A stretch of DNA of 64,000 nt from an uncultured Candidatus Saccharibacteria bacterium (lineage in GTDB: Bacteria; Patescibacteriota; Minisyncoccia; Sungbacterales; HO2-52-23): the NCBI GenBank assembly GCA_964412615.1, contig CAYPPK010000001.1:54983-118982 (forward strand), written 5' to 3'. The notes under the pieces were generated by a model. That model had not been told where the DNA came from, ran no database searches, and saw only the letters and a list, made by a program, of their open reading frames with translations. A program made the translations under genes and the position numbers. This document shows positions 32,969 to 62,505 of the stretch, piece by piece; the stretch's first letter is position 1, and every line of letters starts with the position of its first letter.

Positions 32969-33054
32969 AAAAAAACCAGCTTGGTGTTGAGGTGGTTTCT
33001 GCCCATTGTTTTTCTCTTTAAAAAAGGCGGAATTTGTGCTACACTAATCCCGAC

Positions 33055-35805
33055 GTGTCAATCTTCGGGAAAATTTTTGGGGATGCCAACGAGCGCTATG
33101 TAAAATCGCTGGAATCGGTAGTGGAGGAAATAAATCGCCTGGAAGCTGAATTTACTAAACTTTCTGATGAGGAATTAAAAAATAAAACCCCCGAATTTAA
33201 AAGCCGCCTGCAGGCCGGGGAAGAATTAGATCAAATTCTACCAGAAGCTTTTGCGGCGGTGCGGGAGGCGGGCAAACGCACTTTGGGTCTGCGGCATTTT
33301 GACGTGCAATTGGTCGGCGGCGTGGTTTTACATCAGGGTAAAATCGCCGAGATGAAAACCGGGGAAGGAAAGACCCTGGTGGCCACTCTTCCTTTATATT
33401 TAAATTCTCTTGAGGGCTCGGGAGCGCATCTGGTTACCCCCAACGACTATCTTTCCCGCATTGGCGCGGGCTGGATGGGCCCTTTGTATCACGCGCTTGG
33501 CGTATCAGTGGGGGTGGTGTCGCACGAATGGTCCGGTATTTATGATTCTGATTACACTGATCCTGCTCCGCATGGAGACGAGCGACTTTTGCATTTCCGG
33601 CCGGTTTCGCGTAAAGAGGCCTATCACGCGGATATTACCTATGGAACCAATAATGAATTTGGTTTTGACTATCTGCGCGATAATCTTGAATATCTGCCTG
33701 ATGCTTTGCGTCAGCGAGAACATCATTTTGCCATTGTGGATGAAGTTGACTCTATTTTGATTGATGAAGCGCGGACTCCTTTAATTATTTCCATGCCGGA
33801 TGCTGACTCCGCGGATCTATACAACGTATTTGCCCGCCTTACTCCCCAGCTGAAAGAAGGAGCTGATTACAATGTGGATGAAAAAATGAGAGCTGTTTCC
33901 ATCACCGAAGAAGGGATAAATAAGATAGAGAAGATTTTAAACGTTGATAATATTTACGAAGAAAAAGGAATTAGTTTTGTCCGGCACCTGGAGCAAGCCC
34001 TGCGGGCGCAAGCCCTTTTTCATCGCGACAAGGACTATGTAGTTAAAAACGGCGAAGTAATTATTGTGGATGAATTTACCGGGCGGCTCATGCCGGGACG
34101 CAGATGGTCCGAGGGCTTGCACCAGGCAGTAGAAGCCAAGGAAGGAGTGGAAATTCAAAAAGAATCCAGGACGCTGGCCACCATAACTTTTCAAAATTAT
34201 TTCCGCATGTATGAAAAGTTGGCGGGCATGACCGGAACCGCGCAAACCTCCGCCGAAGAATTTCATAAAGTATATAAATTGGACGTTATCACCATTCCCA
34301 CCCATCGGCCCATGATCCGAAAAGACAAAGCCGATCTGATATTTCGGACAACCAAAGGCAAGTTTCAGGCAGTGGCGCGGGAAGTGAAAGAACGGCATCA
34401 AAAAGGCCAGCCGGTTTTAATCGGCACGGTTTCCATTGAAAAAAATGAACTTCTTTCCAAAATTTTGGAGATGGAGGGAGTTAGGCATGAAGTGCTGAAT
34501 GCCAAAAACCATGAACGAGAAGCGCTGATCATTGCCCAAGCCGGCCGCCAAGGCGCGGTTACGGTTGCCACCAACATGGCCGGCAGAGGAGTGGACATTA
34601 TCCTCGGAGGAACGGCCTCCGAGGAGGATAAAATTCAAAAGACCCCACACCAGAACAAGTTCGGGATGGGGCAGGTAAAAGATAAAAATGCCGACGGAGA
34701 CGAGGTCAGGGCATTAGGAGGCCTGCATGTCATTGGAACCGAGCGGCATGAAGCGCGGCGAATTGACAACCAGCTTCGGGGCCGCGCCGGAAGACAAGGA
34801 GATCCCGGCTCTTCGCAATTTTTCGTTTCCATGGAAGATGACCTGATGCGTATTTTCGGCTCGGACAAAATAAAGCGCATGATGGAAACACTCGGCCTGC
34901 CGGAGGACCAGCCGATTGAAAATAAAATGGTGTCCCGGGCCATTGAAGCATCCCAAGCCAAGATTGAGGGCTTTCATTTTGACAGCCGCAAGCATGTGCT
35001 GGAATTTGATGATGTTTTAAATAAACAAAGGGACTCCATTTATAAAATGAGAAAGGAAATTCTCTTTGCCGGTGATCAGGCAGTTCTAAAAGAGAAAATT
35101 TTTAGGATGTTTGAAGAGGAAATCGCGAGATTGGTTGAATTTCATACCCAAGCAAATGCGGCGGAAGAATGGAATCATGAGGAAATTTTTGAAACGATCA
35201 AGGCCATGTCCGGCGTCTCTGATGAAGTGCACCAGAAATTGCGCGATATTGCTAGCGCGGATTCGGAAGACCAAAGAACGGAAATGGAGCAATATCTTCT
35301 GGATACTCTTAAGAATCTTTATGAAGAAAGAGAAAATAAAATCGGCTCTCAAGGCATGCGGAATATTGAACGCGCGGTAATGCTTAGAGCCATAGATATG
35401 CTTTGGATGGATCATCTGGACCAGATGGAGCATTTGCGCGATTCCGTGCGTCTGCGCGCTTACGGCCAGCGTGATCCTTTGGTAGAGTATAAGCACGAGG
35501 GGGCAAAACTTTTTCGCGAATTACAAGCCGCCATCCGCAGCCAAATTGTCAGCTCCATCTTTAAAATCGGCGGTGCTCCGGAGGCTGATACTCCTAGGAA
35601 AGTTGAAGAGCGAAAACCCGAAACTGCTGAAATTATGAATAAGGAATTGGGAATTAGGGAAGCGGTTACTGCTAATCAGCATAGCAAACAACCTGAACCC
35701 GAAATAGGCAGAAATGAGTTATGCCCTTGCGGGTCAGGTAGAAAATACAAACGCTGCGGACTTTTGGAAACAGAGGAGCATAAGAGATTTGTGGCACGAA
35801 AATAA
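33055..35805 (+). CDS. secA: preprotein translocase ATPase SecA
   Basis: GTG start at 33055 gives canonical (M)SIFGKIFGDANER N-terminus; DEAD-like motor motifs; C-terminal CPCGSGRKYKRC zinc-binding tail. Confidence 0.9.
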   Translation: MSIFGKIFGDANERYVKSLESVVEEINRLEAEFTKLSDEELKNKTPEFKSRLQAGEELDQILPEAFAAVREAGKRTLGLRHFDVQLVGGVVLHQGKIAEMKTGEGKTLVATLPLYLNSLEGSGAHLVTPNDYLSRIGAGWMGPLYHALGVSVGVVSHEWSGIYDSDYTDPAPHGDERLLHFRPVSRKEAYHADITYGTNNEFGFDYLRDNLEYLPDALRQREHHFAIVDEVDSILIDEARTPLIISMPDADSADLYNVFARLTPQLKEGADYNVDEKMRAVSITEEGINKIEKILNVDNIYEEKGISFVRHLEQALRAQALFHRDKDYVVKNGEVIIVDEFTGRLMPGRRWSEGLHQAVEAKEGVEIQKESRTLATITFQNYFRMYEKLAGMTGTAQTSAEEFHKVYKLDVITIPTHRPMIRKDKADLIFRTTKGKFQAVAREVKERHQKGQPVLIGTVSIEKNELLSKILEMEGVRHEVLNAKNHEREALIIAQAGRQGAVTVATNMAGRGVDIILGGTASEEDKIQKTPHQNKFGMGQVKDKNADGDEVRALGGLHVIGTERHEARRIDNQLRGRAGRQGDPGSSQFFVSMEDDLMRIFGSDKIKRMMETLGLPEDQPIENKMVSRAIEASQAKIEGFHFDSRKHVLEFDDVLNKQRDSIYKMRKEILFAGDQAVLKEKIFRMFEEEIARLVEFHTQANAAEEWNHEEIFETIKAMSGVSDEVHQKLRDIASADSEDQRTEMEQYLLDTLKNLYEERENKIGSQGMRNIERAVMLRAIDMLWMDHLDQMEHLRDSVRLRAYGQRDPLVEYKHEGAKLFRELQAAIRSQIVSSIFKIGGAPEADTPRKVEERKPETAEIMNKELGIREAVTANQHSKQPEPEIGRNELCPCGSGRKYKRCGLLETEEHKRFVARK

Positions 35806-41326: not shown

Positions 41327-41689
41327 ATGCTGTTTAAGAATGACAAATATATTTGGACTCATCATTCTCGCGATAAAATGCGTTATTACCGATTGACCGA
41401 AGCAAGAGTAAAAAGAATTATTCGGCATCCGGCCAGGATAGAGGAGGGAATCTTGGAGGAAGGGATCGCCTGCATGCAGCCCGCCCATGGCAGTGGGCGA
41501 GGCTTACCCATTTCTGCTGGGCGGCCGGCTAAGAATTACTCCGAGATCTGGGTCATGTATGTGCTGGCCAATACCAATGATAAAAGTAAAAAGATAAAAG
41601 TTATAACCGCTTGGCGCTATCCCGGTAAAAGCCCGGAGCGAGATCCAATACCGGTAGAAGTTTTAAAAGAAATAAAAAAATTGATATGA
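41327..41689 (+). CDS. DUF4258-domain protein (toxin-like)
   Basis: 120 aa; YIWTHHSRDKMRYYRLTEARVKRII ... VITAWRYP matches DUF4258 pattern (W..HA..RM.ERGI.....ITVY.P). Confidence 0.5.
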   Translation: MLFKNDKYIWTHHSRDKMRYYRLTEARVKRIIRHPARIEEGILEEGIACMQPAHGSGRGLPISAGRPAKNYSEIWVMYVLANTNDKSKKIKVITAWRYPGKSPERDPIPVEVLKEIKKLI

Positions 41690-42351
41690 ATCAACTCATC
41701 AAAGTTTCGCCATCCGGCATCAGTTACTTATTGGAATGCCCCCGCTGTCTTTGGCTGCATTTTAACGAAAGCGTAAAACGCCCGCGGGGCGCTTATCCCT
41801 CGCTGCCGGACGGCATGGACAATGTTTTCAAAAAATATTTTGACGAATATCGGGGCAAAGAGGAGCTTCCGCCTGAGATTGCAGGGAGAATCACCGGAAA
41901 ACTTTATACTGATCTTAAGCAACTTCACCAATGGAGGGAATTTAATTTCGGCAGGGGAGGAATACGCGCCGAATTTCCGGAGATGAATATGATGGTATCG
42001 GGCGCCATAGATGAATTAATGATTGCGCCGGACGGCAAATTTATTCCTTTTGATTTCAAAACCAGGGGCTATCCCACCAAAGAAGACACGCATGAGCATT
42101 ATCGCCATCAGCTTGATCTCTATGCTTTGCTTTTTGAGAAAAACGGCCACCAGCCGGCAGAACACGGTTACTTGCTTTTTTTCTGGCCCGAAACCTACGG
42201 CTTGGGGCAGGCATCGTTTAAAACCAACTTGGTTAAAATGGATGTTTCTCCCAGCCGCGGCTATGGGGTTTTGCAGAAAGCGCATCAAATTATCACAGGT
42301 CCTCAACCGGATGTTCATGCGGATTGCGAATACTGCGCTTACAGGGGCTAA
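41686..42351 (+). CDS. PD-(D/E)xK nuclease, Cas4/RecB-like with N- and C-terminal Cys pairs
   Basis: 221 aa; CPRC near N-terminus, D..(AIDEL)...FDFK motif II/III, Q..LY motif IV, CEYCAY C-terminus; ATGA overlap with DUF4258 gene. Confidence 0.55.
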   Translation: MNQLIKVSPSGISYLLECPRCLWLHFNESVKRPRGAYPSLPDGMDNVFKKYFDEYRGKEELPPEIAGRITGKLYTDLKQLHQWREFNFGRGGIRAEFPEMNMMVSGAIDELMIAPDGKFIPFDFKTRGYPTKEDTHEHYRHQLDLYALLFEKNGHQPAEHGYLLFFWPETYGLGQASFKTNLVKMDVSPSRGYGVLQKAHQIITGPQPDVHADCEYCAYRG

Positions 42352-42735: not shown

Positions 42736-42806
42736 TTTTATGTCCTTTTGACGGGTCTAGTTACTTATGGTATTTTTATTTGGTAAAAAGTCAACCCTGC
42801 ATCAGT

Positions 42807-43541
42807 ATGCCGGTACTTGAAGTTAAAAATTTGGTGAAGATTTATAAGGACTTGGAAGCAGTCCGGGATATTTCTTTTGCGGTGGAAGAAGGAGAAATAG
42901 TGGGGCTTCTGGGGCCCAATGGCGCGGGGAAAACCACTACCATTAACATGATCCTGGGGCTGCTTACACCAACTTCCGGATCAATCAAAGCCTTCGGAAA
43001 AGATTTTGGGAAAAATCGGGAAGAAATTTTAGGGAAAGCGAACTTTGCCGCGGTTTATGCCCAACTGCCAGGCAATCTTTCCGTCTGGCAGAATCTTTTT
43101 ATTTTTGCTTTGCTTTATGGCGTACCTAGTCCAAGCGCGAAGGTGCAACAATTACTTGAAGAATTTGACCTGCAACAATTTTCCCATTCCCGCAGCGGTT
43201 TTCTTTCTTCCGGCGAACAGTCCCGGCTTAATTTAGCCAAAGCCTTGCTGAATAATCCCAAACTTTTGCTTTTAGACGAGCCTACTGCTTCCATTGATCC
43301 TAGCAACGCGCAAATTTTGCGGCAAAAAATCAAACAATATGCAAAGCAATTTAAGGCCGGAATTCTTTGGACCTCGCATAATATGAATGAAATTGACGAA
43401 GTATGCGACCGCGTCTTATTTATCTCCCACGGAAAAATCTTGCTGGGGGGCAACCCGCGTGATCTTCCCGGACAATACGGCAAGAAAAATCTGGAGGAGC
43501 TTTTCATCGCGGTAGCCAGAGAACCCTTATCTTTGCAGTAG
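42807..43541 (+). CDS. ABC transporter ATP-binding protein
   Basis: Walker A GPNGAGKTT, signature LSSGEQSR, Walker B LLLDEPT; start likely ATG 42807 (MPVLEVKNL). Confidence 0.8.
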   Translation: MPVLEVKNLVKIYKDLEAVRDISFAVEEGEIVGLLGPNGAGKTTTINMILGLLTPTSGSIKAFGKDFGKNREEILGKANFAAVYAQLPGNLSVWQNLFIFALLYGVPSPSAKVQQLLEEFDLQQFSHSRSGFLSSGEQSRLNLAKALLNNPKLLLLDEPTASIDPSNAQILRQKIKQYAKQFKAGILWTSHNMNEIDEVCDRVLFISHGKILLGGNPRDLPGQYGKKNLEELFIAVAREPLSLQ

Positions 43542-43542
43542 T

Positions 43543-43679
43543 ATGAATCCCACACATAACTTTCGCTGTGCTTTGCACCAGGAAAAGCCAGTGTGGGAAG
43601 GATAATAAATTTACCAAACCTTTCGTGATTTCTTGGAAAATTAAACCAGGTGGATTGCGAAAGTTATGTGTGGGATGAA
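43543..43679. repeat. palindromic intergenic element family A, copy 2 (137 bp)
   Basis: ATGAA-TCCCACACATAACTTTCGC ... GCGAAAGTTATGTGTGGGA-TGAA; terminal inverted repeat extends to 18+ bp in this copy. Confidence 0.8.
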
Positions 43680-44469
43680 TTTCAAACGTGCGTTCACAAT
43701 TTTTCTCCGTCAAATTTTCCTGCTCAAGAGGAGTTTTCACCGCCTGCTCGGAATTTTTTATTGGTCCATACTGGAACTCTTTTTATGGGGCTTTCTTACC
43801 GTGTATCTTAACCGGGTGGGCGAGAACCGCTTAAGTTTTATTACCGTGGTCATAGGCACGGTAATACTTTGGAACTTTTTGAATCGGATTCAGCAGGGAG
43901 TGGCCATATCTTTTCTCGAGGATGTGTGGGCCAGAAATTTCATGAATCTCTTTGCCTCTCCCCTGAACATTAAGGAATATGTGGGAGGATTGGTTCTGGT
44001 CAGTATCGTAAGCTCCACGGTATCTATTGCTGTCATGGCCCTAGCGGCTTGGCTGCTTTTTGCTTACAATCTTTTTCAATTTGGATTTCTGATGCTTCCC
44101 TTCATTGCCGTGCTCTTTTTATTCGGGCTGGCGCTTGGTTTTTACACTACGGCTATGATCTTACGCTTTGGCCCTTCTTCAGAAATTTTGGCCTGGTCCA
44201 TTCCGGCTCTTCTGCCTCCTTTCTCGGGAGTATTTTATCCTATCGCTACCCTGCCCGGCTGGATACAGCCCATCGCCAACCTCATTCCCATCTCTCATGT
44301 ATTTGAAGGCATGAGAACCATAGTAATTTCCGGCACTTTTGACCCCAACCGGCTTATTTTTGCCTCTTTGCTCGCGGCTTTCTTTTTAGTGGTTTCTTAT
44401 TGGCTGCTTTTGCGCACTTACCGTTTTGTGTTGCGTGAAGGACGGCTAACTCGCTTTCAGGTGGAATAA
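43675..44469 (+). CDS. ABC-2 type transporter permease
   Basis: 6 TM helices, ABC-2 family layout; start ATG 43675 is supplied by the right end of the repeat (ORF track started at ATG 43666 inside repeat). Confidence 0.65.
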   Translation: MNFKRAFTIFLRQIFLLKRSFHRLLGIFYWSILELFLWGFLTVYLNRVGENRLSFITVVIGTVILWNFLNRIQQGVAISFLEDVWARNFMNLFASPLNIKEYVGGLVLVSIVSSTVSIAVMALAAWLLFAYNLFQFGFLMLPFIAVLFLFGLALGFYTTAMILRFGPSSEILAWSIPALLPPFSGVFYPIATLPGWIQPIANLIPISHVFEGMRTIVISGTFDPNRLIFASLLAAFFLVVSYWLLLRTYRFVLREGRLTRFQVE

Positions 44470-44522
44470 AACTCCACTGTGGATAAAATCGCTTCTTAAG
44501 GTGAAGATTTCTATTATAATGA

Positions 44523-44804
44523 ATGGCATTACTATTAATGTCTTTATTTATGCCTGAAGAAAAGAAAGATATAGCTAAATGGGTTATAGTTTTTATCTCC
44601 TTGGCTGTCGGTTTGGGCGGCGGGTATTATTTTGGTCTTAATCGCGGGGTGGCTAAAGAAAAAGCAGCGGAAGAAGCAAGAAAACTTGAGGCAGAAAAAG
44701 CAGCGGCCAAAGCCGTGAATCCTTTTGAGCAGGTTTCCAGCAATCCTTTTGAAAAAGCCCCAGTAAATCCGTTTGAAAATGTTAAGACGAATCCGTTTGA
44801 ATAA
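44523..44804 (+). CDS. small membrane protein with four C-terminal NPFE repeats
   Basis: 93 aa; TM helix then (V/S/T)NPFE x4. Confidence 0.3.
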   Translation: MALLLMSLFMPEEKKDIAKWVIVFISLAVGLGGGYYFGLNRGVAKEKAAEEARKLEAEKAAAKAVNPFEQVSSNPFEKAPVNPFENVKTNPFE

Positions 44805-44808
44805 CTTT

Positions 44809-46761
44809 ATGCAGAAAAAAAATCTCATATTTGCTTCTGCTATTTTTGCATTAGCGCTAAGCTACTCCGCGTTCATCTATGCGCAGGAGTTCACTTATCC
44901 TGTTCCGGAGCTTGGGAACTGCGAATCGCAGGAAGCATGTAAGGCATATTGCGACGATTCTAGCCACCTTGACGAATGCGTACAATTTGGAGAGAAGCAT
45001 AACCTTCTGGATAAAGAAGAGTTAAAAAAAGCCAAAGAGTTTGAGGGGCAGACCGGCCCCGGCGGATGCCAAGGCGCCAACGAGTGCCGCGCTTATTGCG
45101 AGGACTCCAGCCATCAAAATGAATGTCTTGAGTTTGGCCAACGCAAGGGATTAATCTCCGATCAAAACGCTGAAGTCACTCGGCGCGTGCGCCAGGAAGG
45201 CGGTCCGGGAGGATGCAAAGACGAAAAAGAATGCCGTGCCTATTGCGAAGATCCGGCCAATCTTGATCAATGCTTTGCGTTTGCCGAGACCAATGGATTG
45301 ATTTCCGGAGAAGAAGCCAGCCGCCTTAAAAAAATGGCTTTAGTTTCCGGCCCCGGCGGCTGCAGGGGAAATGAATGCCGAACTTATTGCGAGGATCCCG
45401 GCCACCAACAGGAATGCATTGCGTTTGCGGAGGAAAACGGATTGATGTCTAAAGAAGAGGCGGAGCGGGCCAAAAAATTTGCCGGGAAAACCGGTCCGGG
45501 AGGATGCCGGGGAGAAGAATGCCGCACTTTTTGCGAAAATCCGGAAAGTGCGGGAGGCTGTCTGGATTTTGCGGCCAAAGAAGGATTGATGCCTCCGCAA
45601 GAATTGGAAAGAGCCCGGAAATTTATAAAAGTGTCGCAAGAAGGAGGTCCGGGGGGATGCAAAGGAGGGCAATGCCGGGAATTTTGCGCGGATCCTGCCA
45701 ATCAAAACCAATGTTTTGAGTTTGCCAAAAAGCAGGGGCTCATTAACCCCGCAGAGGAAAAACAGTTTGAGGCGGGAATGAAAATAAGGGAAAAATTGGA
45801 AACGACCGGCGGTCCGGGAGGATGTAAAAATGAAAATGACTGCCGCGCGTATTGCGCCGATCCTGATCGCGTGGAAGAATGCGTGGCCTTTGGCGCTGCG
45901 CATGGCGGCATTCCCGAAACGGAAGCGCGTGAAATGCTGAAAAATTTTCAAGAAAAGCGTTTTGAATTGCGCCAGGAGTTTCGGCCGCCGGAAGATTTTG
46001 CCCGATTTAAAGAGGAGGCGGAAAGAAGGTTTGAGGAATTTAAGCAGCTGGAAATACAATTTCGCAATCGGCCGGAATTAATGGGTCCACCCGCGGGCGG
46101 AGAATTTCCCGCGGGCAGCGGAGCTGAAAGCGGGCAAGTCGGGCCCGGCGGATGTTCTTCAGCATCGGAGTGTATAAAATATTGTTCCGAGCATAAAGAA
46201 GAATGCTTTAGTTTCGGACCGGCAGGAAAACCAGACGTGCTGCCTCCGCAGGGGGGAATTCCTCCCGGACAAGATGGATCTGCCGGCAGATCGGATTTTC
46301 CGCAACTGCGCCAGGATGCCGTGCAATTACGTCCTAGATTAGAACCACGGCCGAAAGATTTAAAAATTGAGCCGCAGCTCAAGAAAGAATTGGAGCAGCG
46401 TTTTCCTGAAGAATTTGAAAGGCGTTCGCCAGAAAATTTTTCGCCTTCTCCCGAAAATATTCAGCCACCCCAGATGAGAACTTTTCCTGCTCCGCCGGAA
46501 GGATTCAAGCCGTCAGATTTACCGTCTGTTTCGCCAAGACCGGAATCATTTTCGCCCCCAGCTGATAATTTCTCGCGTCCGCCTGACAATTCTTTCCTGC
46601 CGCCACCGGTATCGGCACCTCTGCCCAGCGGTTCATTTGAGCAGCAATTCACTCCCGCACCGGACAGCACCGGAGGAGAACAAGCACCGCCGCCTCCGCC
46701 TCCCAGCAGCAGCTTAAATAGCGGTTTTCTGGCCAGTATTATCCATTTCTTTGTCTGGTAA
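44809..46761 (+). CDS. secreted protein with about 9 tandem Cys-rich repeats (GPGGC..ECR.YCEDP....C..F) and Pro-rich C-terminal region
   Basis: Signal peptide MQKKNLIFASAIFALALSYSAFIYA; about 40-aa unit with 4 conserved Cys repeated about 9 times (tandem 120-bp DNA repeats 45040..45900); C-terminal P/S-rich region and hydrophobic tail. Confidence 0.5.
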   Translation: MQKKNLIFASAIFALALSYSAFIYAQEFTYPVPELGNCESQEACKAYCDDSSHLDECVQFGEKHNLLDKEELKKAKEFEGQTGPGGCQGANECRAYCEDSSHQNECLEFGQRKGLISDQNAEVTRRVRQEGGPGGCKDEKECRAYCEDPANLDQCFAFAETNGLISGEEASRLKKMALVSGPGGCRGNECRTYCEDPGHQQECIAFAEENGLMSKEEAERAKKFAGKTGPGGCRGEECRTFCENPESAGGCLDFAAKEGLMPPQELERARKFIKVSQEGGPGGCKGGQCREFCADPANQNQCFEFAKKQGLINPAEEKQFEAGMKIREKLETTGGPGGCKNENDCRAYCADPDRVEECVAFGAAHGGIPETEAREMLKNFQEKRFELRQEFRPPEDFARFKEEAERRFEEFKQLEIQFRNRPELMGPPAGGEFPAGSGAESGQVGPGGCSSASECIKYCSEHKEECFSFGPAGKPDVLPPQGGIPPGQDGSAGRSDFPQLRQDAVQLRPRLEPRPKDLKIEPQLKKELEQRFPEEFERRSPENFSPSPENIQPPQMRTFPAPPEGFKPSDLPSVSPRPESFSPPADNFSRPPDNSFLPPPVSAPLPSGSFEQQFTPAPDSTGGEQAPPPPPPSSSLNSGFLASIIHFFVW

Positions 46762-46822
46762 TTAATTTTGACCGCAATCCGCCTCTTTCCGTAAAGGGGC
46801 GGATTTTGTATAATTTTTTTGT

Positions 46823-47905
46823 ATGTTTGGCAAAGTTTTCATTTCGGTTTTTGTTTTGGGAATTATTGCGGCAGCTGCTGCTTTCTTTTCCTTGGTTCCA
46901 ATTTCTAAAGAAACGGCAAAAAATTCGGAGAGAACACCAGCCACTATTCCCTTGGCTGAACCGGCGAAAGAAAATCCTCCTGAGGTTCGCCAAGTTGAGA
47001 TTGCCCTGCCGCCAATGGAATTGCCTCCGGTTGCTGCTCCGGTACTGCCTCAAGCTGCAGCAACCACTAATCCGGAAGTTCCAGCAAAAATTGAAATAAA
47101 AGCAGAGGATCCGCCAACCGGTCCGCCAGCTGGCGGACTAGAAAATATACCGGAAAAACCAACACTTCCTCCTTTGCGGGAAACGGAAATTTTAAAAGCA
47201 GTAGTAAAAATTCAGTGTCCAACCACAGACGGCCTGGGTAAGTATGTCGGTTCCGGATTTGTTATGGCCGGCGGTACGGTAATTACCGCCGCGCATGTGC
47301 TTAAGGATTCCAGTAGCAGAAATTGTGATGTTATCTTCCCGAATGACCGAAGACCTGTTCATTACTTGCGCGGCATTACCGAGGACTTGGAAATCATCCG
47401 CCAGCGGCATGATAAAGAGGGGATTGATGTGGCATACCTTACTCTGCCTGCTTTGGATTCTTATCCGGAAGCGGCTGCTATTTTCAGCAGTTATCCGAAA
47501 ATTTCTTATCCGATTTGCTCTGAACCGGAAATGCTTAATGATCGGCTGCTGCACTTTGGTTATCCTTCCAACTATGCGGATCAGTCATATCTTTCCCGAC
47601 AAGAAGGCAAAGCCGTAATTTATGCTGATATTAAAAGCGTAAAGAACCAGCTTTCTGAGGATCAAACCTATATCTATAGAACTCCTGTTTTTGCCTATAC
47701 CTATGATCAAAGTGAAATGCGTTCGTATATGGTAAGCCAAGTGGCTTCTTTTTACGGCGATTCAGGGGGTCTGGCTTTCAACGCGGATAAGCAATGCGTC
47801 ATCGGCCCGCATCGGGGAGGAACCATCGGCAAAGCAGCCGGAGAAAATTATTCCGTATTCATGAATTTGGGCTGGGAAAAAGCAAAATCCGTTTTGCCTA
47901 ATTAA
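46823..47905 (+). CDS. trypsin-like serine protease (S1 family) with N-terminal TM anchor and Pro-rich linker
   Basis: TAAHV (His), GDSGG (Ser) catalytic motifs; N-terminal hydrophobic helix. Confidence 0.65.
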   Translation: MFGKVFISVFVLGIIAAAAAFFSLVPISKETAKNSERTPATIPLAEPAKENPPEVRQVEIALPPMELPPVAAPVLPQAAATTNPEVPAKIEIKAEDPPTGPPAGGLENIPEKPTLPPLRETEILKAVVKIQCPTTDGLGKYVGSGFVMAGGTVITAAHVLKDSSSRNCDVIFPNDRRPVHYLRGITEDLEIIRQRHDKEGIDVAYLTLPALDSYPEAAAIFSSYPKISYPICSEPEMLNDRLLHFGYPSNYADQSYLSRQEGKAVIYADIKSVKNQLSEDQTYIYRTPVFAYTYDQSEMRSYMVSQVASFYGDSGGLAFNADKQCVIGPHRGGTIGKAAGENYSVFMNLGWEKAKSVLPN

Positions 47906-47995
47906 TGTTTGACATCTTTTTTAACACCCTGAGGGTACTTGACTTTTTTGGGCCGTAGTGTAAACCGGTATTTAGAACATGAACAAGGAGACGCT

Positions 47996-49618
47996 ATGGC
48001 AAAGCCCTCTGCGGAATATTGGGAATCTCGAGGAATTCCAAAAGAACTGTGTGAAGCCTATAAAGTTTTCTATGATGCCTGCAGGGTAATAAAAGTAGGC
48101 GGGGTTGATTGGCGTATCTTCCCTGGCGTGCCGGCAACTGACTCAATGGATGAAGGTCTCAAGAGACTGGATGAATTTGGCTTAGCCATTAGACTGGGGT
48201 TTTATTCAATTCTTTTGGGTCCAAATGAGGAAGCGACAAAATTTTTGGATAGTATGCAATGGGATGAGAGAAGAGTTGTTCTTTACAGGGTAGGTATGGA
48301 ATTTGCTAGGTCAAACATGGACGGAGGATTGAAATCTCCTGTTATACTTAGACATGCCGGCCAATTGCTCGGGGATAGTCCTTTATTAAATGAGGTTAGA
48401 GACCTGATACGTCAAGCGGCCCTGAGACCTATTACCGTTGTCCTAGAAGGAGATACTGGCACAGGCAAAGAACTGGTTGCCCGTCTTCTGCATAACGACA
48501 GCGATAGGAGAGAGCAACCATTTGTACCCATAAACTGCGCGGCGGTCCCCGAAACTCTTATGGAAAGCACGCTCTTCGGTCACGAAAGGGGTGCTTTTAC
48601 CGGCGCCGTAAATCGGCATCACGGTGTTTTTGAACAAGCAAATCACGGGACTCTCTTTCTAGATGAGATTACCGAACTTCAGTTGCACCTCCAGGCTAAG
48701 CTCCTGCGGGTTCTGCAGGAAGGAAAAATCAGAAGAGTTGGGGGGAAAGAAGATCTTGTAGTTGACGTGCGAGTGGTCGCGGCTACCAATAAAGGCCTTC
48801 TTAAAGCGCTTGCCGAAAGGACTCTCCGCCAGGATCTTTTCTATCGGCTGGACGTGGTGAGAATCCACATGCCTTCGCTAAGGGACCGTCCAGAGGACAT
48901 TGTCCTCTTGGCTCAGCATTTTTTGCTAAAAACATGCGCCTCCTGGGGAATTAATCCTCTTCCGGGGTTTTCTCCCGAGGCAATAGCTGCAATGCGTCTG
49001 CATTCCTGGCCGGGCAATGTCCGGGAGCTGGAAGCATGCGTTACTCGGGCACTGGTTAAGCATACGGGCGGCGTGATCGCCGAGAAGGATTTGGGAATCA
49101 ACGGCAAAAATACGGGAATTGAATCAGAACCGGATGAAGCGGAAGTGCTAAAGACATATTATGAGGTTCAGAGGGGACATGTTCTGCGGGTGCTAGAAGC
49201 CTGCAACTGGAACAGAACACATGCGGCTAAGATCTTGGGGGTTACCGTGAGGACTATAAGAAACAATCTGCGCAGAGAGAAAGAAGAAAGGATGCGCCGT
49301 GGTCAAAAAGGACTTGTGATTCCAGCCGGAGGCGATGGTCGCTCAATATCGGGGGTTCCAAGACCAGGGTTTGAAAAAGAGATTAAGAAAGGCGTAAGCA
49401 AACTTTTGGGTGATAAAGATTTTGGACCGGTTCATAAGCAAGATTGGCCTCCAAGAGGAGATAAAGGTTCCGATGTTACTAGAATTAGACTATTGCTTGT
49501 CGCACGAGCTCTCCGCCAAACAGACTTCCAAAAACGAAAAGCAGCCGAGTTACTAGGTATTTCGGAAGGCACTCTCGCTGCTTGGGCGAGCATGATTCGA
49601 AGGGTATACAGCCGATAA
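47996..49618 (+). CDS. sigma-54-dependent transcriptional activator (bacterial enhancer-binding protein), Fis-type HTH plus extra C-terminal HTH
   Basis: AAA+ domain with Walker A GDTGTGKE, GAFTGA loop, Walker B LFLDEI, R-finger; HTH LEACNWNRTHAAKILGVTVRTIRN; second HTH-like AAELLGISEGTLAAW; start ATG 47996 preceded by AAGGAG. Confidence 0.75.
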   Translation: MAKPSAEYWESRGIPKELCEAYKVFYDACRVIKVGGVDWRIFPGVPATDSMDEGLKRLDEFGLAIRLGFYSILLGPNEEATKFLDSMQWDERRVVLYRVGMEFARSNMDGGLKSPVILRHAGQLLGDSPLLNEVRDLIRQAALRPITVVLEGDTGTGKELVARLLHNDSDRREQPFVPINCAAVPETLMESTLFGHERGAFTGAVNRHHGVFEQANHGTLFLDEITELQLHLQAKLLRVLQEGKIRRVGGKEDLVVDVRVVAATNKGLLKALAERTLRQDLFYRLDVVRIHMPSLRDRPEDIVLLAQHFLLKTCASWGINPLPGFSPEAIAAMRLHSWPGNVRELEACVTRALVKHTGGVIAEKDLGINGKNTGIESEPDEAEVLKTYYEVQRGHVLRVLEACNWNRTHAAKILGVTVRTIRNNLRREKEERMRRGQKGLVIPAGGDGRSISGVPRPGFEKEIKKGVSKLLGDKDFGPVHKQDWPPRGDKGSDVTRIRLLLVARALRQTDFQKRKAAELLGISEGTLAAWASMIRRVYSR

Positions 49619-56174: not shown

Positions 56175-57629
56175 ATGTCTATGCCGAAAGAAGGCAGGAT
56201 ACATCTAAATAAATACGCTCCGCCGCCTCCCGAGTTGCCGGTCTACCAGCAAATAGATCCGCGGGAGGTTTCTTTTATCGGCCGCACCAATTACGAGGCG
56301 CCTCTGGAATCCAAGAAATATATTTTTGGCATCAGGCGCAAAGACCGCCGGCGCCATGTTTATATCGTGGGCAAGTCCGGAGTGGGCAAATCAAAACTTT
56401 TGGAACTTATGGCACGCCAGGATATTGCTTACGGCCATGGGGTTTGTTTGATTGACCCGCACGGAGACGTGATAGAAGAAGTTTTAAAATTTATTCCGGA
56501 AGAGCGCGTTGGAGACGTGATTTTGATTGATCCGGCCGACGCCGATTGGCCTATTTCTTTTAACCCCTTGCAAAAAGTGCCGCCTGATTTAAAGCATCAA
56601 ATGGCGCAGGGTTTGATTGAAGTCATGGAAAAACAATTCGGAGCCAACTGGACCCCGCGCCTGGAGCATGTTTTTCGCTTTACAACCTTGGCTTTATTGG
56701 ATTATCCCGAGGCGACTTTGCGGGGTATGATCTCCATGCTAACTGACCGACCGTATCGCCAAAAAGTCATTGAATACATTACCGATGACATGGTAAAGCG
56801 CTTTTTTGCGGTAGAATTCGCCGATTGGTCGGAGAAGTTTGATACTGACGCCATCATTCCTTTGGTAAATAAACTCGGCCAATTTCTTTCCATGCCCATG
56901 CTGCGCAATATTTTTGCCCAGAAAGAAAATAAAATTGACTTGGAGGAGATAATGAACAATAAAAAAATCCTTCTGATTAACCTTTCCAAGGGCAAACTGG
57001 GAGAGGAAAATTCCAGTTTCTTCGGTTCCATGTTTATTACCAAGATCAAACAGGCCGGCATGGCGCGGGCCGGCATGCCGGAGGAAAAACGAACGGACTT
57101 TTATCTATATGTAGACGAGTTCCATAATTTAGTAACCGATTCTTTTACCAATCTTTTTTCTGAAGCGCGCAAGTACGGGCTTAACCTTACCGTCGCTCAC
57201 CAATATACCGCTCAGCTTTTACCTGAAGTGCTGGCTACTGTTTTGGGTAATGTGGCCAATATTATTATTTTCCGGGTTGGGGGCGATGACGCGGCCAAAC
57301 TGGAATCCGAAATGACTCCGGTTTTCAAGGCCAAAGACATGATTAACTTAGGCACGCAGGAATTTTATATCAAAGAAACAATTGACGGAGAGACCTATGA
57401 TCCTTTTTCTGCCGAAACTCTTAAGATTCTTCCGGCTCCGCATCCTTCTTACAAAAGCAAAATTATAGAGGCTTCCCATCAAAAATACGCCATGCACGTG
57501 GAGGAAGTTAAAAAAATGCTCAAAGAGGAAGAAGAGGCGGTGATTTTCAGGAAAAATGGCAATACTTCTTCTGCCACTTCCGCCGACAATGCGAATGGCT
57601 ACGAGTCTCCACCCGAACCACTGATTTAA
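56175..57629 (+). CDS. VirD4/TraG/TraD-like P-loop ATPase (DUF87/TraG-D_C type, 'type IV secretion DNA-binding domain' family)
   Basis: Walker A GKSGVGKS, Walker B FYLYVDEFHN, AHQY motif; paralog of 60508..62505. Confidence 0.6.
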   Translation: MSMPKEGRIHLNKYAPPPPELPVYQQIDPREVSFIGRTNYEAPLESKKYIFGIRRKDRRRHVYIVGKSGVGKSKLLELMARQDIAYGHGVCLIDPHGDVIEEVLKFIPEERVGDVILIDPADADWPISFNPLQKVPPDLKHQMAQGLIEVMEKQFGANWTPRLEHVFRFTTLALLDYPEATLRGMISMLTDRPYRQKVIEYITDDMVKRFFAVEFADWSEKFDTDAIIPLVNKLGQFLSMPMLRNIFAQKENKIDLEEIMNNKKILLINLSKGKLGEENSSFFGSMFITKIKQAGMARAGMPEEKRTDFYLYVDEFHNLVTDSFTNLFSEARKYGLNLTVAHQYTAQLLPEVLATVLGNVANIIIFRVGGDDAAKLESEMTPVFKAKDMINLGTQEFYIKETIDGETYDPFSAETLKILPAPHPSYKSKIIEASHQKYAMHVEEVKKMLKEEEEAVIFRKNGNTSSATSADNANGYESPPEPLI

Positions 57630-60507: not shown

Positions 60508-62505
60508 ATGGCCAAAAACGAAAAAGATATTATTTATATAGGCAAATGCAATTTCCGCGGCAATGAGCGGGTTTTTGGCATTAAAACCAAAGATCGCCGC
60601 CAGCATATGTATGTAATCGGCAAGACCGGAGTGGGCAAGACCGCGCTTCTTAAAAATTTAGCGCTGCAAGATATCCGAGCGGGAAGAGGTTTGGCCATAA
60701 TTGATCCGCACGGTGAATTCGTGGAGGAAGTTCTCTCGCAAATTCCGCCAGAGCGAACCAACGATGTAATTTATTTCAATCCCGTTGATACGGAATTTCC
60801 CATCGGATTTAATGTTTTGGAAGTACCGGATCAAAAATACAAACACTTGGTAGTGTCTGACTTGTTGGGCATTTTTACTAAAATCTGGGCCAATGTCTGG
60901 TCGGCCCGCATGGAATACATTCTGCAAAATTGCATCATGGCCCTTTTGGATACTCCCGGCACCACGCTTTTGGGGATTCCGCGTCTTTTGGTAGACAAGG
61001 ACTATCGGCAAAAAATAATTGCCAACGTCAAAGATCCGGTAGTAAAATCCTTCTGGGTGCATGAATACGAGACCTGGCGGGATCAATTTAGAAACGAAGC
61101 CATAGTTCCAATTCAAAATAAGGTAAACCAGTTTTTAAATACCGCTTTTATCCGCAATATCGTAGGCCAGCCCAAATCCACGCTTAATATCCCAGAGATC
61201 ATGAATTCCCGGAAGATCCTTCTGGTTAATGTTTCCAAGGGAAGAATAGGAGAGGATAATTCCGCGCTCTTGGGCGCCATGATTATTACCAAAATACAAC
61301 TCGCGTCCATGGAACGCGTGAGAATTCTGGAAGACGAACGGGTGGATTTTTATTTATATGTGGATGAGTTCCAGAATTTTGCTACCGATTCTTTTGCCAG
61401 CATTTTATCCGAAGCAAGAAAATACCGACTAAACATTATTATCGCGCATCAATATGTAGGGCAGTTGGTAACTGATGTCTCCACTAAAGTCCGCGACGCG
61501 GTATTTGGTAACGTAGGAACTATGATTACATTTCGGGTGGGAGCTACGGATGCCGAATTTCTGGAGCCGGAATTTACTCCCGAGTTCATGGGACAGGATA
61601 TAATAAATCTTCCCAACCATCATGTTTATTTGAAATTAATGGTGGATGGAGTTACTTCTCGGCCGTTTTCTTCCGTTACGCTGCCCCCTTTGCAGTTTGA
61701 AACCGATCCGGAAGTGCGGGAGAAAATCATCAAGGTTTCGCGGCAGCGTTATGCTAAACCAAGAGTAGAAGTGGAAGATAAAATTTCACGCTGGAGTGGA
61801 CTTTCTGGAGAATTAGAGGAGAGGGGGAGCAGCGGAACCCCAGCTCTGCCGCCAGGCCAACTTATAGAAACTCCTTGCTGGAACTGCGGCAAAACCGCCA
61901 CCGTGCCGTTTAAGCCCGATGGCCGCCGGCCGGTTTATTGCATGTCCTGTCTTAAGCAGATAGAAGAGGGCAAACTTATTCCTATTCCCGAACGCATGCC
62001 TAAAGTTGGCCGGGAAAAATACAGCCAGTCTCTAGAAGGACTGGGAATTGAATTTGGAGCAGCAAGTAAGGAGACTCGGCCTTCTTATAACCAAAACCAA
62101 GATAGAAAGGAGCCAATGGCAGTTCCTGATAGAATTGGGAATCGTCCCGCTATGCCCAAAGGAAATAATTTTCAGCGCAATAAGCGACGGGAGGATGAAC
62201 GCGTGAAAACGCCCAGCAAAAAGGAAGAAATAAAAATGGGGATACGCTCGCAACCCGTGGTGCGGTCGGCTTCGGGAGTAAAGCCTATTTCACTTTCTTC
62301 TTTGGAGCCCAAAATAGAAGAAGAAAGTCCGACGAACGAAGAAAAAAAATCTCCAAATAAATTTCCCGGATTAAAAGAGCTTTTGCGCGAAGTACTCAAA
62401 ACTGATCAAAATCATAAAGAAGAAATAAAAACGACAGAAAATAAAAAAAGAGAAGCAAAAGAAAATAGCAAAATAGTAAAACCCGGAGATGTAATAAAAT
62501 TTTAA
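60508..62505 (+). CDS. VirD4/TraG/TraD-like P-loop ATPase with C-terminal zinc-ribbon and Lys/Glu-rich tail (paralog of 56175..57629)
   Basis: Walker A GKTGVGKT, Walker B FYLYVDEFQN, AHQY; C-terminal CWNCG...CMSC zinc ribbon and low-complexity K/E-rich tail. Confidence 0.6.
   Translation: MAKNEKDIIYIGKCNFRGNERVFGIKTKDRRQHMYVIGKTGVGKTALLKNLALQDIRAGRGLAIIDPHGEFVEEVLSQIPPERTNDVIYFNPVDTEFPIGFNVLEVPDQKYKHLVVSDLLGIFTKIWANVWSARMEYILQNCIMALLDTPGTTLLGIPRLLVDKDYRQKIIANVKDPVVKSFWVHEYETWRDQFRNEAIVPIQNKVNQFLNTAFIRNIVGQPKSTLNIPEIMNSRKILLVNVSKGRIGEDNSALLGAMIITKIQLASMERVRILEDERVDFYLYVDEFQNFATDSFASILSEARKYRLNIIIAHQYVGQLVTDVSTKVRDAVFGNVGTMITFRVGATDAEFLEPEFTPEFMGQDIINLPNHHVYLKLMVDGVTSRPFSSVTLPPLQFETDPEVREKIIKVSRQRYAKPRVEVEDKISRWSGLSGELEERGSSGTPALPPGQLIETPCWNCGKTATVPFKPDGRRPVYCMSCLKQIEEGKLIPIPERMPKVGREKYSQSLEGLGIEFGAASKETRPSYNQNQDRKEPMAVPDRIGNRPAMPKGNNFQRNKRREDERVKTPSKKEEIKMGIRSQPVVRSASGVKPISLSSLEPKIEEESPTNEEKKSPNKFPGLKELLREVLKTDQNHKEEIKTTENKKREAKENSKIVKPGDVIKF

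What the first reader, a model, noticed from the sequence alone, without database searches (positions are those of the whole stretch)
44523..47905. Secreted module: NPFE-repeat mini-protein, about 9x tandem 4-Cys repeat protein, membrane-anchored S1 protease
The 662-aa protein has a signal peptide followed by about nine tandem copies of a 40-aa unit, GPGGC(..)ECR(A/T)YCEDP....C..F(G/A)...GL...E, with four invariant Cys per unit. It is encoded by near-identical 120-bp DNA repeats, which are prone to copy-number variation. It ends with a P/S-rich region and a hydrophobic tail. Upstream is a small TM protein ending in four NPFE repeats. Downstream is a trypsin-like protease (TAAHV/GDSGG) with a TM anchor and a Pro-rich stalk. 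This looks like a cell-surface or adhesin-like system, possibly involved in host/episymbiont attachment, whose repeat number could phase-vary.
Basis: seen in the sequence. Interest (0 to 1): 0.5.

Follow-up and report, generated by a model that had tools for sequence, protein, structure and literature searches.

The report
Parcubacterial exported cysteine-repeat protein pair
This is a conserved, uncharacterised two-gene unit of Parcubacteria (ultra-small candidate-phyla bacteria): a tiny membrane protein with four NPF motifs next to an exported protein built of eight cysteine-rich helical units, most likely a fixed part of the cell envelope and not a phase-variable adhesin.

Summary
The three genes are real, but several details and the main interpretation do not hold. 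The repeat protein starts at ATG 44809 (650 aa). It has eight ~48-55-aa units, not nine of 40 aa, each with four invariant Cys (C-x4/5-C-x3-C-x6/8-C). The DNA units are only 44-67% identical, the longest exact repeat is 17 nt, and TRF finds nothing, so slippage-type phase variation is unsupported. The module has no Pfam, NCBIfam or PDB relative. About 1,900 representatives exist worldwide, and every source-named hit is Patescibacteria/Parcubacteria. Most of the 120 closest homologs have nine position-specific units. AlphaFold gives a confident all-helical array with three helices per unit. The NPF mini-protein lies directly upstream in 40/40 testable loci and in 4/4 reciprocal look-ups, so the two genes form an obligate pair. 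The S1 protease is intact but adjacent in only 10/40 loci, and it follows a terminator-like hairpin. Best reading: a Sec-exported, probably disulfide-stapled helical envelope scaffold, possibly tethered by its NPF partner. Function remains inferred.

The parts
44523..44804 (+). NPF-repeat mini-protein gene. The ORF runs from ATG 44523 (93 aa), but the probable true start is ATG 44550 (84 aa).
   Evidence: ORF. An identical 84-aa protein is in the database (P0124). Orthologs lie directly upstream of the Cys-repeat gene in 40 of 44 loci, and the other 4 have no upstream DNA. A TATAAT box sits at 44514-44519.
44580..44636 (+). Single transmembrane segment of the mini-protein (WVIVFISLAVGLGGGYYFG), followed by a charged helix.
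   Evidence: Read from the sequence. Two Gly of the segment are invariant in 22 orthologs, and a Lys usually lies just before it. The topology is not settled by flank charges.
44718..44801 (+). C-terminal tail with four NPFE motifs (NPFEQVSSNPFEKAPVNPFENVKTNPFE).
   Evidence: NP[FLY] occurs four times in 33 of 36 orthologs, and N-P-F columns are invariant. The Pfam NPF model scores only 19.8 bits against a cut-off of 27.6.
44809..46761 (+). Gene for the exported 4-Cys repeat protein (650 aa). Its ATG lies 4 nt after the mini-protein's stop codon.
   Evidence: A 100% identical 650-aa protein is in the database (P0001, P0268). No Pfam or NCBIfam family passes its cut-off.
44809..44883 (+). Sec-type signal peptide (MQKKNLIFASAIFALALSYSAFIYA, probable cleavage before QE).
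   Evidence: Hydropathy and small-x-small analysis give the same features in 102-104 of 106 homologs. There is no twin-arginine motif and no lipobox. No dedicated signal-peptide predictor was available.
44902..45948 (+). Seven tandem 4-Cys units. Unit frames are 44902-45045, 45049-45192, 45196-45339, 45343-45486, 45487-45630, 45640-45783 and 45805-45948.
   Evidence: The motif is C-x4/5-C-x3-C-x8-C. AlphaFold pLDDT is above 90 with three helices per unit. All four Cys are kept in 768 of 768 units from 120 homologs.
45949..46134 (+). Conserved charged helical spacer (FRPPEDF.RFEEEA..RFEEF.QLE..FR) followed by a Gly/Pro linker.
   Evidence: Consensus of 88 homologs. The model shows helices 370-388 and 394-419 with pLDDT 83-95.
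46135..46278 (+). Eighth, isolated 4-Cys unit (GPGGCSSASECIKYCSEHKEECFSFG; C-x5-C-x3-C-x6-C).
   Evidence: This terminal unit type is conserved, with 101 occurrences of the x5/x3/x6 spacing in 120 homologs.
46279..46722 (+). Pro/Ser-rich tail predicted to be disordered. This is the variable region of the family.
   Evidence: P 21.7% and S 13%. pLDDT is below 50 for most of the tail. Homolog tails carry optional Kazal, LamG or extra Cys modules, always with even Cys counts.
46723..46758 (+). Short C-terminal amphipathic helix (GFLASIIHFFVW).
   Evidence: The motif type ...FFA..l..F..R is conserved at the C-terminus of most homologs. It is too short for a membrane span. There is no LPXTG or PEP-CTERM signal.
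46776..46814 (+). Terminator-like hairpin (AATCCGCC...GGCGGATT plus a T-rich run), then a TATAAT box ahead of the protease gene.
   Evidence: Sequence. The scan lists a shorter stem at 46788-46803. This is a consensus match only.
46823..47905 (+). Membrane-anchored S1 (Trypsin_2) serine protease of 360 aa: N-terminal TM (46832-46903), Pro-rich stalk (46913-47197), catalytic domain (47198-47902).
   Evidence: Pfam Trypsin_2 at 4.6e-9 and Trypsin at 1.3e-6. H, D and S plus four Cys are conserved in 11 orthologs, except that one ortholog reads GSSGG instead of GDSGG. The stalk is 22% Pro. No PDZ domain was found and there is no PDB sequence match.

Best explanation
The core of the finding is a strict two-gene unit found in Parcubacteria/Patescibacteria.

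Gene 1 encodes an ~84-aa single-pass membrane protein. After a charged helix it ends in four NPF(E) motifs. Gene 2 starts 4 nt later. It encodes a Sec-exported 650-aa protein with four parts:
- eight small three-helix units, each holding four invariant cysteines;
- a conserved charged helical spacer;
- a disordered Pro/Ser-rich tail;
- a short amphipathic C-terminal helix.

Shown: the architecture, the export-type signal, the confident all-helical repeat fold, the invariance of the Cys, the obligate adjacency of the two genes, and the location in a conserved housekeeping block next to secDF.

Inferred:
- The four Cys of each unit form two intra-unit disulfides. This would make a rigid, protease-resistant helical rod outside the cytoplasmic membrane.
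- The rod is a constitutive envelope scaffold of these wall-bearing, outer-membrane-less cells.
- It is held at the surface by its partner, whose NPF tail would act as a set of four short docking motifs for the repeat array. This requires the mini-protein to be oriented N-in/C-out.
- Its own amphipathic C-terminus may contribute to anchoring.
- The variable tail carries lineage-specific accessory modules (Kazal, lectin-like).

The neighbouring S1 protease is a separate, probably separately transcribed, membrane-anchored extracytoplasmic protease. It is a frequent syntenic neighbour, not an obligate partner.
For: Family and distribution:
- More than 1,834 homologs were found, and every hit that a source names is Patescibacteria/Parcubacteria.
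- A profile of a single unit finds only 1,869 proteins in 1.84 billion representatives. The 150 best listed have 6-13 units.

Fold:
- pLDDT exceeds 90 over residues 30-420, all helical, three helices per unit.

Export and disulfides:
- Signal-peptide features occur in 102/106 homologs, and there is no Tat motif.
- The Cys count of the mature protein is even in 105/106 homologs.
- Extra Cys in homolog tails always come in even numbers.
- True Kazal domains, which depend on disulfides, pass Pfam cut-offs in the same polypeptide in some homologs.
- CPR genomes are reported to be enriched in an MdbA-like disulfide-forming oxidoreductase (PMC6744442).

Pairing:
- An NPF mini-protein ortholog lies directly upstream on the same strand in 40/44 loci, and the other four lack upstream DNA.
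- Intergenic gaps are mostly under 50 nt, and 4 nt in the window.
- Starting from NPF proteins, 4/4 are followed by a large exported Cys-rich protein.
- NP[FLY] occurs four times in 33/36 orthologs.

Housekeeping character:
- The conserved block is PDDEXK nuclease, (ABC-2 transporter), the pair, (protease), SecD, SecF, sigma-70-like.
- Nine units occur in 90 of 120 homologs.
Against: - No experiment or coordinate-level model was available, so the disulfide pairing and the rod shape are inferred.
- pTM is only 0.59, so the arrangement between units is uncertain.
- The topology of the mini-protein is unresolved. Mean flank charges are 0.53 (N side) against 0.39 (C side). If its tail is cytoplasmic, it cannot dock the exported protein.
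- Docking of NPF motifs to the repeats was not tested at all.
- Four invariant Cys per unit fit a metal site as well as two disulfides.
- Conserved synteny in small genomes can keep unrelated genes adjacent, although a 4-nt gap and 40/40 adjacency go beyond ordinary synteny.
Confidence: 0.55

Rival explanations
1. Extracytoplasmic metal-binding array. Each unit would use its four cysteines to coordinate a metal ion or cluster (Zn, Cu(I) or Fe-S). The protein would then be a metal store, buffer or redox rod, not a disulfide-stapled scaffold.
For: All four Cys are kept in 768/768 units with near-fixed spacing. Two of them sit one helical turn apart (C-x3-C) and a third lies on the facing helix. 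That geometry can converge on one site. From my own knowledge, Cys-lined helical bundles such as the Csp copper storage proteins exist.
Against: The signal is Sec-type and lacks a twin-arginine motif, whereas cofactor-loaded proteins are normally exported folded through Tat (established knowledge). Homolog tails carry 2, 4, 6 ... extra Cys and Kazal domains, which points to an oxidising, disulfide-forming destination. There are no His/Asp co-ligands or known metal motifs, and no Pfam metal-binding family matched.
Confidence: 0.15
2. One reading: a surface adhesin for host or episymbiont attachment, whose repeat number phase-varies through recombination or slippage between repeats.
For: The layout is that of a surface protein: signal, repeats, Pro-rich tail. 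Some homolog tails carry a lectin-like LamG domain. Within one 90%-identity Azambacteria cluster, alleles of 825 and 777 aa differ by exactly one unit. A few homologous genes hold exact DNA repeats of 50-60 nt.
Against: In the window, TRF finds no array, units are 44-67% identical at the DNA level, and the longest exact repeat is 17 nt. The three members of the window protein's own cluster are 650, 650 and 660 aa, so no unit differs. Unit number is 9 in 75% of homologs, and the units are positionally orthologous across candidate phyla. That is stable ancient repeat structure with purifying selection, not an on/off or size-switching locus. The one-unit indel could also be an assembly collapse.
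Confidence: 0.07
3. Protease-linked function. The repeat protein would be a substrate, decoy, inhibitor or regulator of the neighbouring membrane-anchored S1 protease, and the three genes would form one functional system.
For: The protease ortholog lies 81-1146 nt downstream in 10/40 distinct loci, with E-values of 1e-94 to 1e-111. About one sixth of homologs (20/120) carry a Kazal-type serine-protease-inhibitor motif in the tail. The two such homologs that were scanned pass the Pfam cut-offs. Loci with Kazal tails and loci with the protease neighbour do not overlap (0 with both).
Against: The protease is absent from the neighbourhood in 30/40 loci. In the window a terminator-like hairpin and a TATAAT box separate the genes. 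The window protein has no Kazal domain. The Kazal-versus-protease exclusivity is not significant (Fisher p = 0.17) and probably follows phylogeny.
Confidence: 0.1
4. Extracytoplasmic secretion or folding helper. The pair would work with SecDF (and SecA, also in the window) as a lineage-specific chaperone or thiol-redox buffer for exported proteins.
For: secD-secF follow the pair within 5 kb in about 18 of 40 distinct loci, and after two inserted genes in the window. The mini-protein occupies the operon position and has the size of YajC-like small Sec partners (my own knowledge). The protein is very rich in Cys.
Against: No YajC, thioredoxin or DsbA match was found for either protein. There is no CxxC redox motif. 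The confident rigid fold and the invariant Cys suggest structural cysteines, not reactive ones. The adjacency to secDF may be plain synteny.
Confidence: 0.08

Closest known systems
Helicobacter cysteine-rich proteins (HcpA/B/C), Sel1-like repeat family (comparison from my own knowledge)
   Same: These are Sec-exported bacterial proteins built of tandem alpha-helical repeats, each repeat stapled by cysteines, forming a solenoid-like array.
   Different: Hcp repeats are about 36 aa with two helices and one disulfide. Here the units are about 48 aa with three helices and four Cys. There is no Pfam Sel1/TPR hit. The only Sel1-repeat structure in the Foldseek list has E = 4.8 and TM 0.10-0.16. Hcp proteins have no NPF partner gene.
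Gram-positive wall-anchored surface proteins (LPXTG/sortase substrates)
   Same: The overall layout matches: signal peptide, tandem repeats, Pro-rich putative wall-spanning region, hydrophobic C-terminus. The host cells are reported to lack a Gram-negative envelope (PMC6744442).
   Different: No LPXTG motif occurs in this protein or in 120 homologs. The C-terminal segment is 12 residues or fewer and amphipathic, so it is not a membrane span with a basic tail. The sequence is highly conserved, not variable.
   Same: An exported protein with tandem repeats. One example of a one-unit length difference between near-identical alleles was seen in a related lineage.
   Different: Those systems depend on near-identical DNA repeats. 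Here unit identity is 44-67% and TRF finds no array.
Eukaryotic NPF motifs that bind EH domains (Pfam PF16601, Rabenosyn-5 NPF repeats)
   Same: Several closely spaced Asn-Pro-Phe motifs, often followed by an acidic residue, sit in a flexible tail. This is the format of a multivalent short linear docking motif.
   Different: The match is below the Pfam cut-off (19.8 against 27.6 bits). No EH domain was detected in any protein scanned in the window. The resemblance is in format only, and the partner proposed here is the Cys-repeat array.
HtrA/DegP and MarP membrane-associated S1 proteases (for the third gene)
   Same: An extracytoplasmic trypsin-fold serine protease tethered to the membrane, with an intact His/Asp/Ser triad.
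   Different: No PDZ domain was detected. The MarP model scores 23 bits against a 250-bit cut-off. There is a single TM plus a Pro-rich stalk, and no PDB sequence relative at E < 0.01.

Membership tests
Peptidase S1 / Pfam Trypsin_2 (third gene) | Profile match above the gathering score | tested here: met
   Trypsin_2 scores 37.6 bits (cut-off 27.6) and Trypsin 28.9 bits (cut-off 20.6).
Peptidase S1 / Pfam Trypsin_2 (third gene) | Catalytic His, Asp and Ser present and conserved | tested here: met
   TAAH155, GID200 and GDSGG312 are present. These columns are conserved in 11 orthologs, except that one ortholog reads GSSGG.
HtrA/DegP (S1C) | One or more C-terminal PDZ domains | tested here: not met
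   No PDZ family appears in the Pfam scan at E <= 0.1, and the protein ends shortly after the catalytic domain.
MarP family protease (NCBIfam NF033740) | Equivalog score above the cut-off | tested here: not met
   23 bits against a cut-off of 250.
Kazal-type inhibitor domain (PF00050/PF07648) | Six-Cys Kazal domain in the window protein | tested here: not met
   The window protein has no Kazal hit. Kazal passes the cut-off only in the tails of some homologs, for example P0014 and P0063. The 4-Cys unit itself is not Kazal.
Sel1-like / TPR helical repeats (Hcp-type) | Profile or fold match to Sel1-like or TPR repeats | tested here: not met
Sortase-anchored (LPXTG) surface proteins | LPXTG-type motif followed by a membrane span and a basic tail | tested here: not met
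   No LP.TG motif in the window protein or in the last 60 aa of 120 homologs. The C-terminal uncharged run is 12 aa or fewer in 119/120.
Phase- or size-variable tandem-repeat genes | Near-identical head-to-tail DNA repeats | tested here: not met
   TRF finds 0 arrays. Unit identity is 44-67%, and the longest exact repeat is 17 nt.
Phase- or size-variable tandem-repeat genes | Different repeat numbers among near-identical strains | tested here: inconclusive
   The window's own cluster has members of 650, 650 and 660 aa, with no unit change. A related Azambacteria cluster has 825-aa and 777-aa alleles that differ by one unit. An assembly artefact is not excluded.
Sec-exported proteins | N-terminal signal peptide with n, h and c regions | tested here: met
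   Heuristic analysis only: a basic n-region, a 12-aa hydropathy of 2.7, and a small-x-small site. The same features occur in 102-104 of 106 homologs. SignalP or DeepTMHMM were not available.
Tat-exported cofactor proteins | Twin-arginine motif in the signal peptide | tested here: not met
   The window protein has no RR in its first 15 residues, and only 6 of 120 homologs have RR in the first 12.
EH-domain-binding NPF repeat (PF16601) | Profile match above the gathering score | tested here: not met
   19.8 bits against a cut-off of 27.6, E = 0.0012.
Disulfide-bonded extracytoplasmic protein (general class) | Cysteines paired as disulfides | not testable with these tools
   The evidence is indirect: an even Cys count in 105/106 homologs and Kazal modules in homologs.

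The most novel reading that the evidence does not exclude
The NPF mini-protein and the Cys-repeat protein form a previously undescribed bacterial surface-tethering system. Four extracellular NPF motifs on a membrane stalk would dock multivalently into the 8-9 three-helix, disulfide-stapled units. This would be a prokaryotic counterpart of short-linear-motif/repeat-domain recognition. The result would be a lineage-defining envelope layer of Parcubacteria, whose variable tail (Kazal, lectin-like modules) faces the host or the environment.
Probability: 0.2. Interest if true: 0.65.

Novelty: new variant of a known kind. Interest (0 to 1): 0.42.

Why it matters
Parcubacteria are abundant, uncultivated, ultra-small bacteria, and most of their lineage-specific proteins are unannotated. 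This pair is conserved across several candidate phyla and sits in a housekeeping block next to secDF. It has no Pfam, NCBIfam or PDB relative, yet it folds with high predicted confidence. That makes it a good candidate for a core envelope component of these cells, a clean target for a new domain-family definition, and a candidate for structural and localisation work. For the scan itself, the result removes a tempting but wrong reading (a phase-variable adhesin). It also replaces a three-gene 'system' with a strictly conserved two-gene unit.

Tried and rejected
- Tandem Repeats Finder found no array. Direct-repeat search found only short diverged cores. The near-identical-repeat claim is rejected.
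- Pfam and NCBIfam gave only sub-threshold spurious hits for the repeat protein (HepT-like) and for the mini-protein (NPF, FliL).
- A PDB sequence search with the family profile found nothing at E <= 1. The protease found nothing at E <= 0.01.
- I tried to read the disulfide pairing from partial Cys loss in homologs. No unit has lost any Cys (768/768), so there is no information.
- Model coordinates are not exposed, so S-S distances could not be measured.
- Flank-charge analysis did not settle the topology of the mini-protein.
- The correlation between NPF-motif count and unit count (rho 0.52) rests on three outliers and is not interpreted.
- The Kazal-versus-protease exclusivity is not significant (p = 0.17).
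- Literature searches for the GPGGC module, for Cys-rich Patescibacteria surface proteins and for bacterial NPF proteins found no description.
- Rfam and tRNA scans of the window were empty.

Full report
**1. What is in the sequence**

The region holds three co-oriented ORFs:
- 44523-44804, 93 aa;
- an ORF listed from TTG 44773 to 46761, 662 aa;
- 46823-47905, 360 aa.

The 662-aa reading overlaps the upstream gene. The in-frame ATG at 44809 gives a 650-aa protein beginning MQKKNLIFASAIFALALSYSAFIYAQE. An identical 650-aa protein is the form present in public collections (P0001 and P0268).

The mini-protein most likely starts at ATG 44550 (84 aa). That form is in the database (P0124), and it matches the short N-termini of its orthologs.

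**2. The repeats**

- The large protein contains 32 Cys, all in eight in-register units with the motif C-x4/5-C-x3-C-x6/8-C. Seven units are preceded by GPGG.
- The motif occurs 8 times, against a mean of 0.0015 in 2000 shuffles. It occurs nowhere else in the six frames of the window.
- Seven units are in tandem with starts 48-55 aa apart. The eighth follows a 62-aa spacer made of a charged helical stretch and a Gly/Pro linker.

At the DNA level:
- Tandem Repeats Finder reports nothing.
- Pairwise unit identity is 44-67%.
- The longest exact direct repeat in the gene is 17 nt.
- The repeat finder recovers only 28-57-nt cores at 60-89% identity, spaced 144-168 nt apart.

The repeats are old and diverged. 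They are not a substrate for slippage.

**3. Family and distribution**

- No Pfam or NCBIfam model passes its cut-off for the repeat protein.
- A profile of 88 homologs matches no PDB sequence.
- The protein search returned more than 1,834 homologs. Every hit that a source names is Patescibacteria/Parcubacteria (Wildermuth-, Sung-, Azam- and Colwellbacteria, Paceibacterales). The names given are 'hypothetical', 'proline-rich domain-containing' or 'Kazal-like domain-containing'.
- A profile of the single unit, run against 1.84 billion representatives, found only 1,869 proteins (981 at E <= 1e-30). The 150 best listed have 6-13 units and 386-1,555 aa. On this evidence the module belongs essentially to this one protein family.
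- Among the 120 best homologs, 90 have nine units, with a range of 6-11. The window protein has eight and lacks consensus unit 2.
- Whole-protein identity to homologs is 41-60%. For the three units tested, identity to their positional counterparts is 48-71%. Units within this protein share only 22-59%. The units therefore appear positionally orthologous, and the array is ancient and under purifying selection.
- All four Cys are kept in 768 of 768 units.

**4. Structure**

- AlphaFold2 with 88 sequences gives pLDDT above 90 for residues 30-420. This region is all helical with three helices per unit. A long conserved helical spacer follows, and then a mostly disordered tail.
- A three-unit fragment gives a mean pLDDT of 88.
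- pTM is 0.59 in both models, so the packing between units is less certain.
- Foldseek against the PDB found nothing better than E = 1, and those hits are generic alpha-solenoids.

The unit is thus a small Cys-rich three-helix module without a recognisable solved relative.

**5. Export and cysteine chemistry**

- The N-terminus has a basic n-region, a strong h-region and a small-x-small site. Equivalent features occur in 102-104 of 106 homologs.
- There is no twin-arginine motif, lipobox, LPXTG or PEP-CTERM signal.
- The mature protein has an even number of Cys in 105/106 homologs.
- Extra Cys in the variable tails come as 2, 4... 14.
- Some tails carry Kazal domains that pass Pfam cut-offs, and one homolog carries a LamG-like domain.
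- Meheust et al. 2019 report that CPR genomes are enriched in an MdbA-like disulfide-forming oxidoreductase (PMC6744442).

Together these points favour an extracytoplasmic, disulfide-bonded protein.

The C-terminal 'hydrophobic tail' is a 12-residue amphipathic segment. Its type is conserved (...FFA..l..F..R), but it is too short for a membrane span.

**6. The partner**

In 44 loci fetched through the repeat protein, an ortholog of the mini-protein lies directly upstream on the same strand in 40. The other four loci begin at the repeat gene and have no upstream DNA. Gaps are mostly under 50 nt and 4 nt in the window.

The orthologs are 74-105 aa long. They share:
- one N-terminal TM, with two invariant Gly and a conserved aromatic residue;
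- a Gly-x3-Gly run;
- a charged helix;
- four NP[FLY] motifs in 33/36, with the protein ending in NPF(E/K).

The reciprocal test started from NPF proteins on long contigs. All four are followed within 2-54 nt by a large exported Cys-rich protein:
- two are canonical, with 9 and 6 units;
- two are divergent, Cys-rich proteins of 1,541 and 952 aa.

This is therefore an obligate two-gene unit. The pairing appears to extend beyond the canonical 4-Cys family.

Whether the NPF tail is outside the cell is unresolved, because flank charges are uninformative. A Lys just before the TM in most orthologs is the usual N-in/C-out signal-anchor design, but that is inference.

**7. The protease and the wider context**

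- The third gene is a bona fide S1 protease. It has Trypsin_2 above the cut-off, a His/Asp/Ser triad and four Cys conserved in 11 orthologs (one ortholog reads GSSGG), a TM anchor and a 22%-Pro stalk. No PDZ domain was detected.
- Its ortholog lies downstream of the pair in only 10 of 40 distinct loci.
- In the window, a terminator-like hairpin (46776-46804) with a T-rich run and a TATAAT box lie between the genes.
- The pair sits in a syntenic housekeeping block: SAM synthetase ... PDDEXK nuclease, (ABC-2 transporter), the pair, (protease), SecD, SecF, a sigma-70-like/HARE-HTH protein, and DUF87/TrwB ATPases.
- In the window, a sigma-54-type activator and a GMP-synthase-like gene are inserted before secD.

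I therefore treat the protease as a frequent neighbour, not as part of the unit.

**8. Interpretation**

The best-supported reading is a constitutive, lineage-specific envelope protein. It would be a Sec-exported, probably disulfide-stapled helical array with a variable Pro-rich tail. It is co-expressed with, and possibly tethered by, a membrane mini-protein that displays four NPF motifs (confidence about 0.55 for the general picture, lower for the tether).

Rivals:
- a metal-binding array (0.15);
- a protease-linked role (0.10);
- a Sec/folding helper (0.08);

One fact favours some plasticity in copy number. In a related Azambacteria cluster, near-identical alleles of 825 and 777 aa differ by exactly one unit, and a few homologous genes hold exact repeats of 50-60 nt. 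Against this, the window's own cluster shows no unit variation, and its DNA units are diverged.

**9. Novelty**

I found no description of the module or of the NPF partner in the searchable literature. In kind it resembles secreted Cys-stapled helical-repeat proteins, such as the Helicobacter Hcp/Sel1-like proteins. It fails every membership test for the known families that were tested. I rate it as a new variant of a known kind. Its interest is moderate: it is a clean candidate for a new domain family and for a core envelope component of Parcubacteria, but its function is untested.

Noticed in passing
window 47939-49618 (+); also L027:3579-4580, L005/L006:1240-2310, L020:117-1187: A sigma-54-type AAA+ activator (Sigma54_activat 2e-66, HTH_8, an unassigned N-terminal 140 aa and a second C-terminal HTH) lies right after the protease. 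Related genes recur beside the pair in three other Parcubacteria lineages. Whether these genomes encode RpoN was not checked.
   Followed up: partly
window 1-27900: A long cell-surface glycopolymer biosynthesis cluster. It includes two CDP-glycerol glycerophosphotransferase-like genes, cytidylyltransferases, DegT aminotransferase, GT2/GT4 transferases, a Wzy_C ligase fused to TPR, a PMT-type mannosyltransferase, sugar epimerases, an LPG_synthase_TM-methyltransferase fusion and a Bac_transf priming enzyme.
   Followed up: no
window 56175-57629 and 60508-62505 (+): Two TrwB/DUF87-type coupling-protein-like ATPases, one of them with a treble-clef zinc finger, lie downstream of secDF and the sigma-70-like gene. 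The same arrangement follows in L001.
   Followed up: no
P0030 versus P0286 and P0040 (Azambacteria clusters): Near-identical alleles differ by a clean in-frame loss of one 48-50-aa unit (825 against 777 or 775 aa). P0055 lacks a 69-aa tail segment. This is either real population-level unit indels or assembly collapse of similar units.
   Followed up: partly
L045:4327-8273 and L048:2509-5367: Downstream of divergent NPF mini-proteins lie much larger exported Cys-rich proteins of 1,541 aa (77 Cys in the 1,315 aa held in the locus) and 952 aa (43 Cys). Each has only one canonical 4-Cys unit. L048 keeps the amphipathic C-terminal motif and a CPxMPT...C module that is also seen in the tails of canonical homologs. 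The NPF partner may define a broader superfamily of pairs.
   Followed up: partly
40 distinct loci: A Kazal domain in the tail (8 loci) and a downstream S1 protease neighbour (10 loci) never co-occur. The effect is not significant (Fisher p = 0.17) and is probably phylogenetic, but it could hint at interplay between protease and inhibitor.
   Followed up: partly
window 41686-42351 (+) and 42780-44469 (+): A PD-(D/E)XK (Cas4-like) nuclease is a conserved upstream neighbour of the pair in many loci. In the window, L007/L008 and L013 an ABC-2 transporter (ATPase plus permease) is inserted between them.
   Followed up: no
window 45340-46059 (-): A 239-aa antisense ORF lies inside the repeat gene. 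It is most likely a by-product of the repeat composition and not a gene. It was not examined further.
   Followed up: no
window 33034-35805 (+): SecA is encoded about 9 kb upstream. The window therefore carries SecA, SecD and SecF around the exported pair.
   Followed up: no
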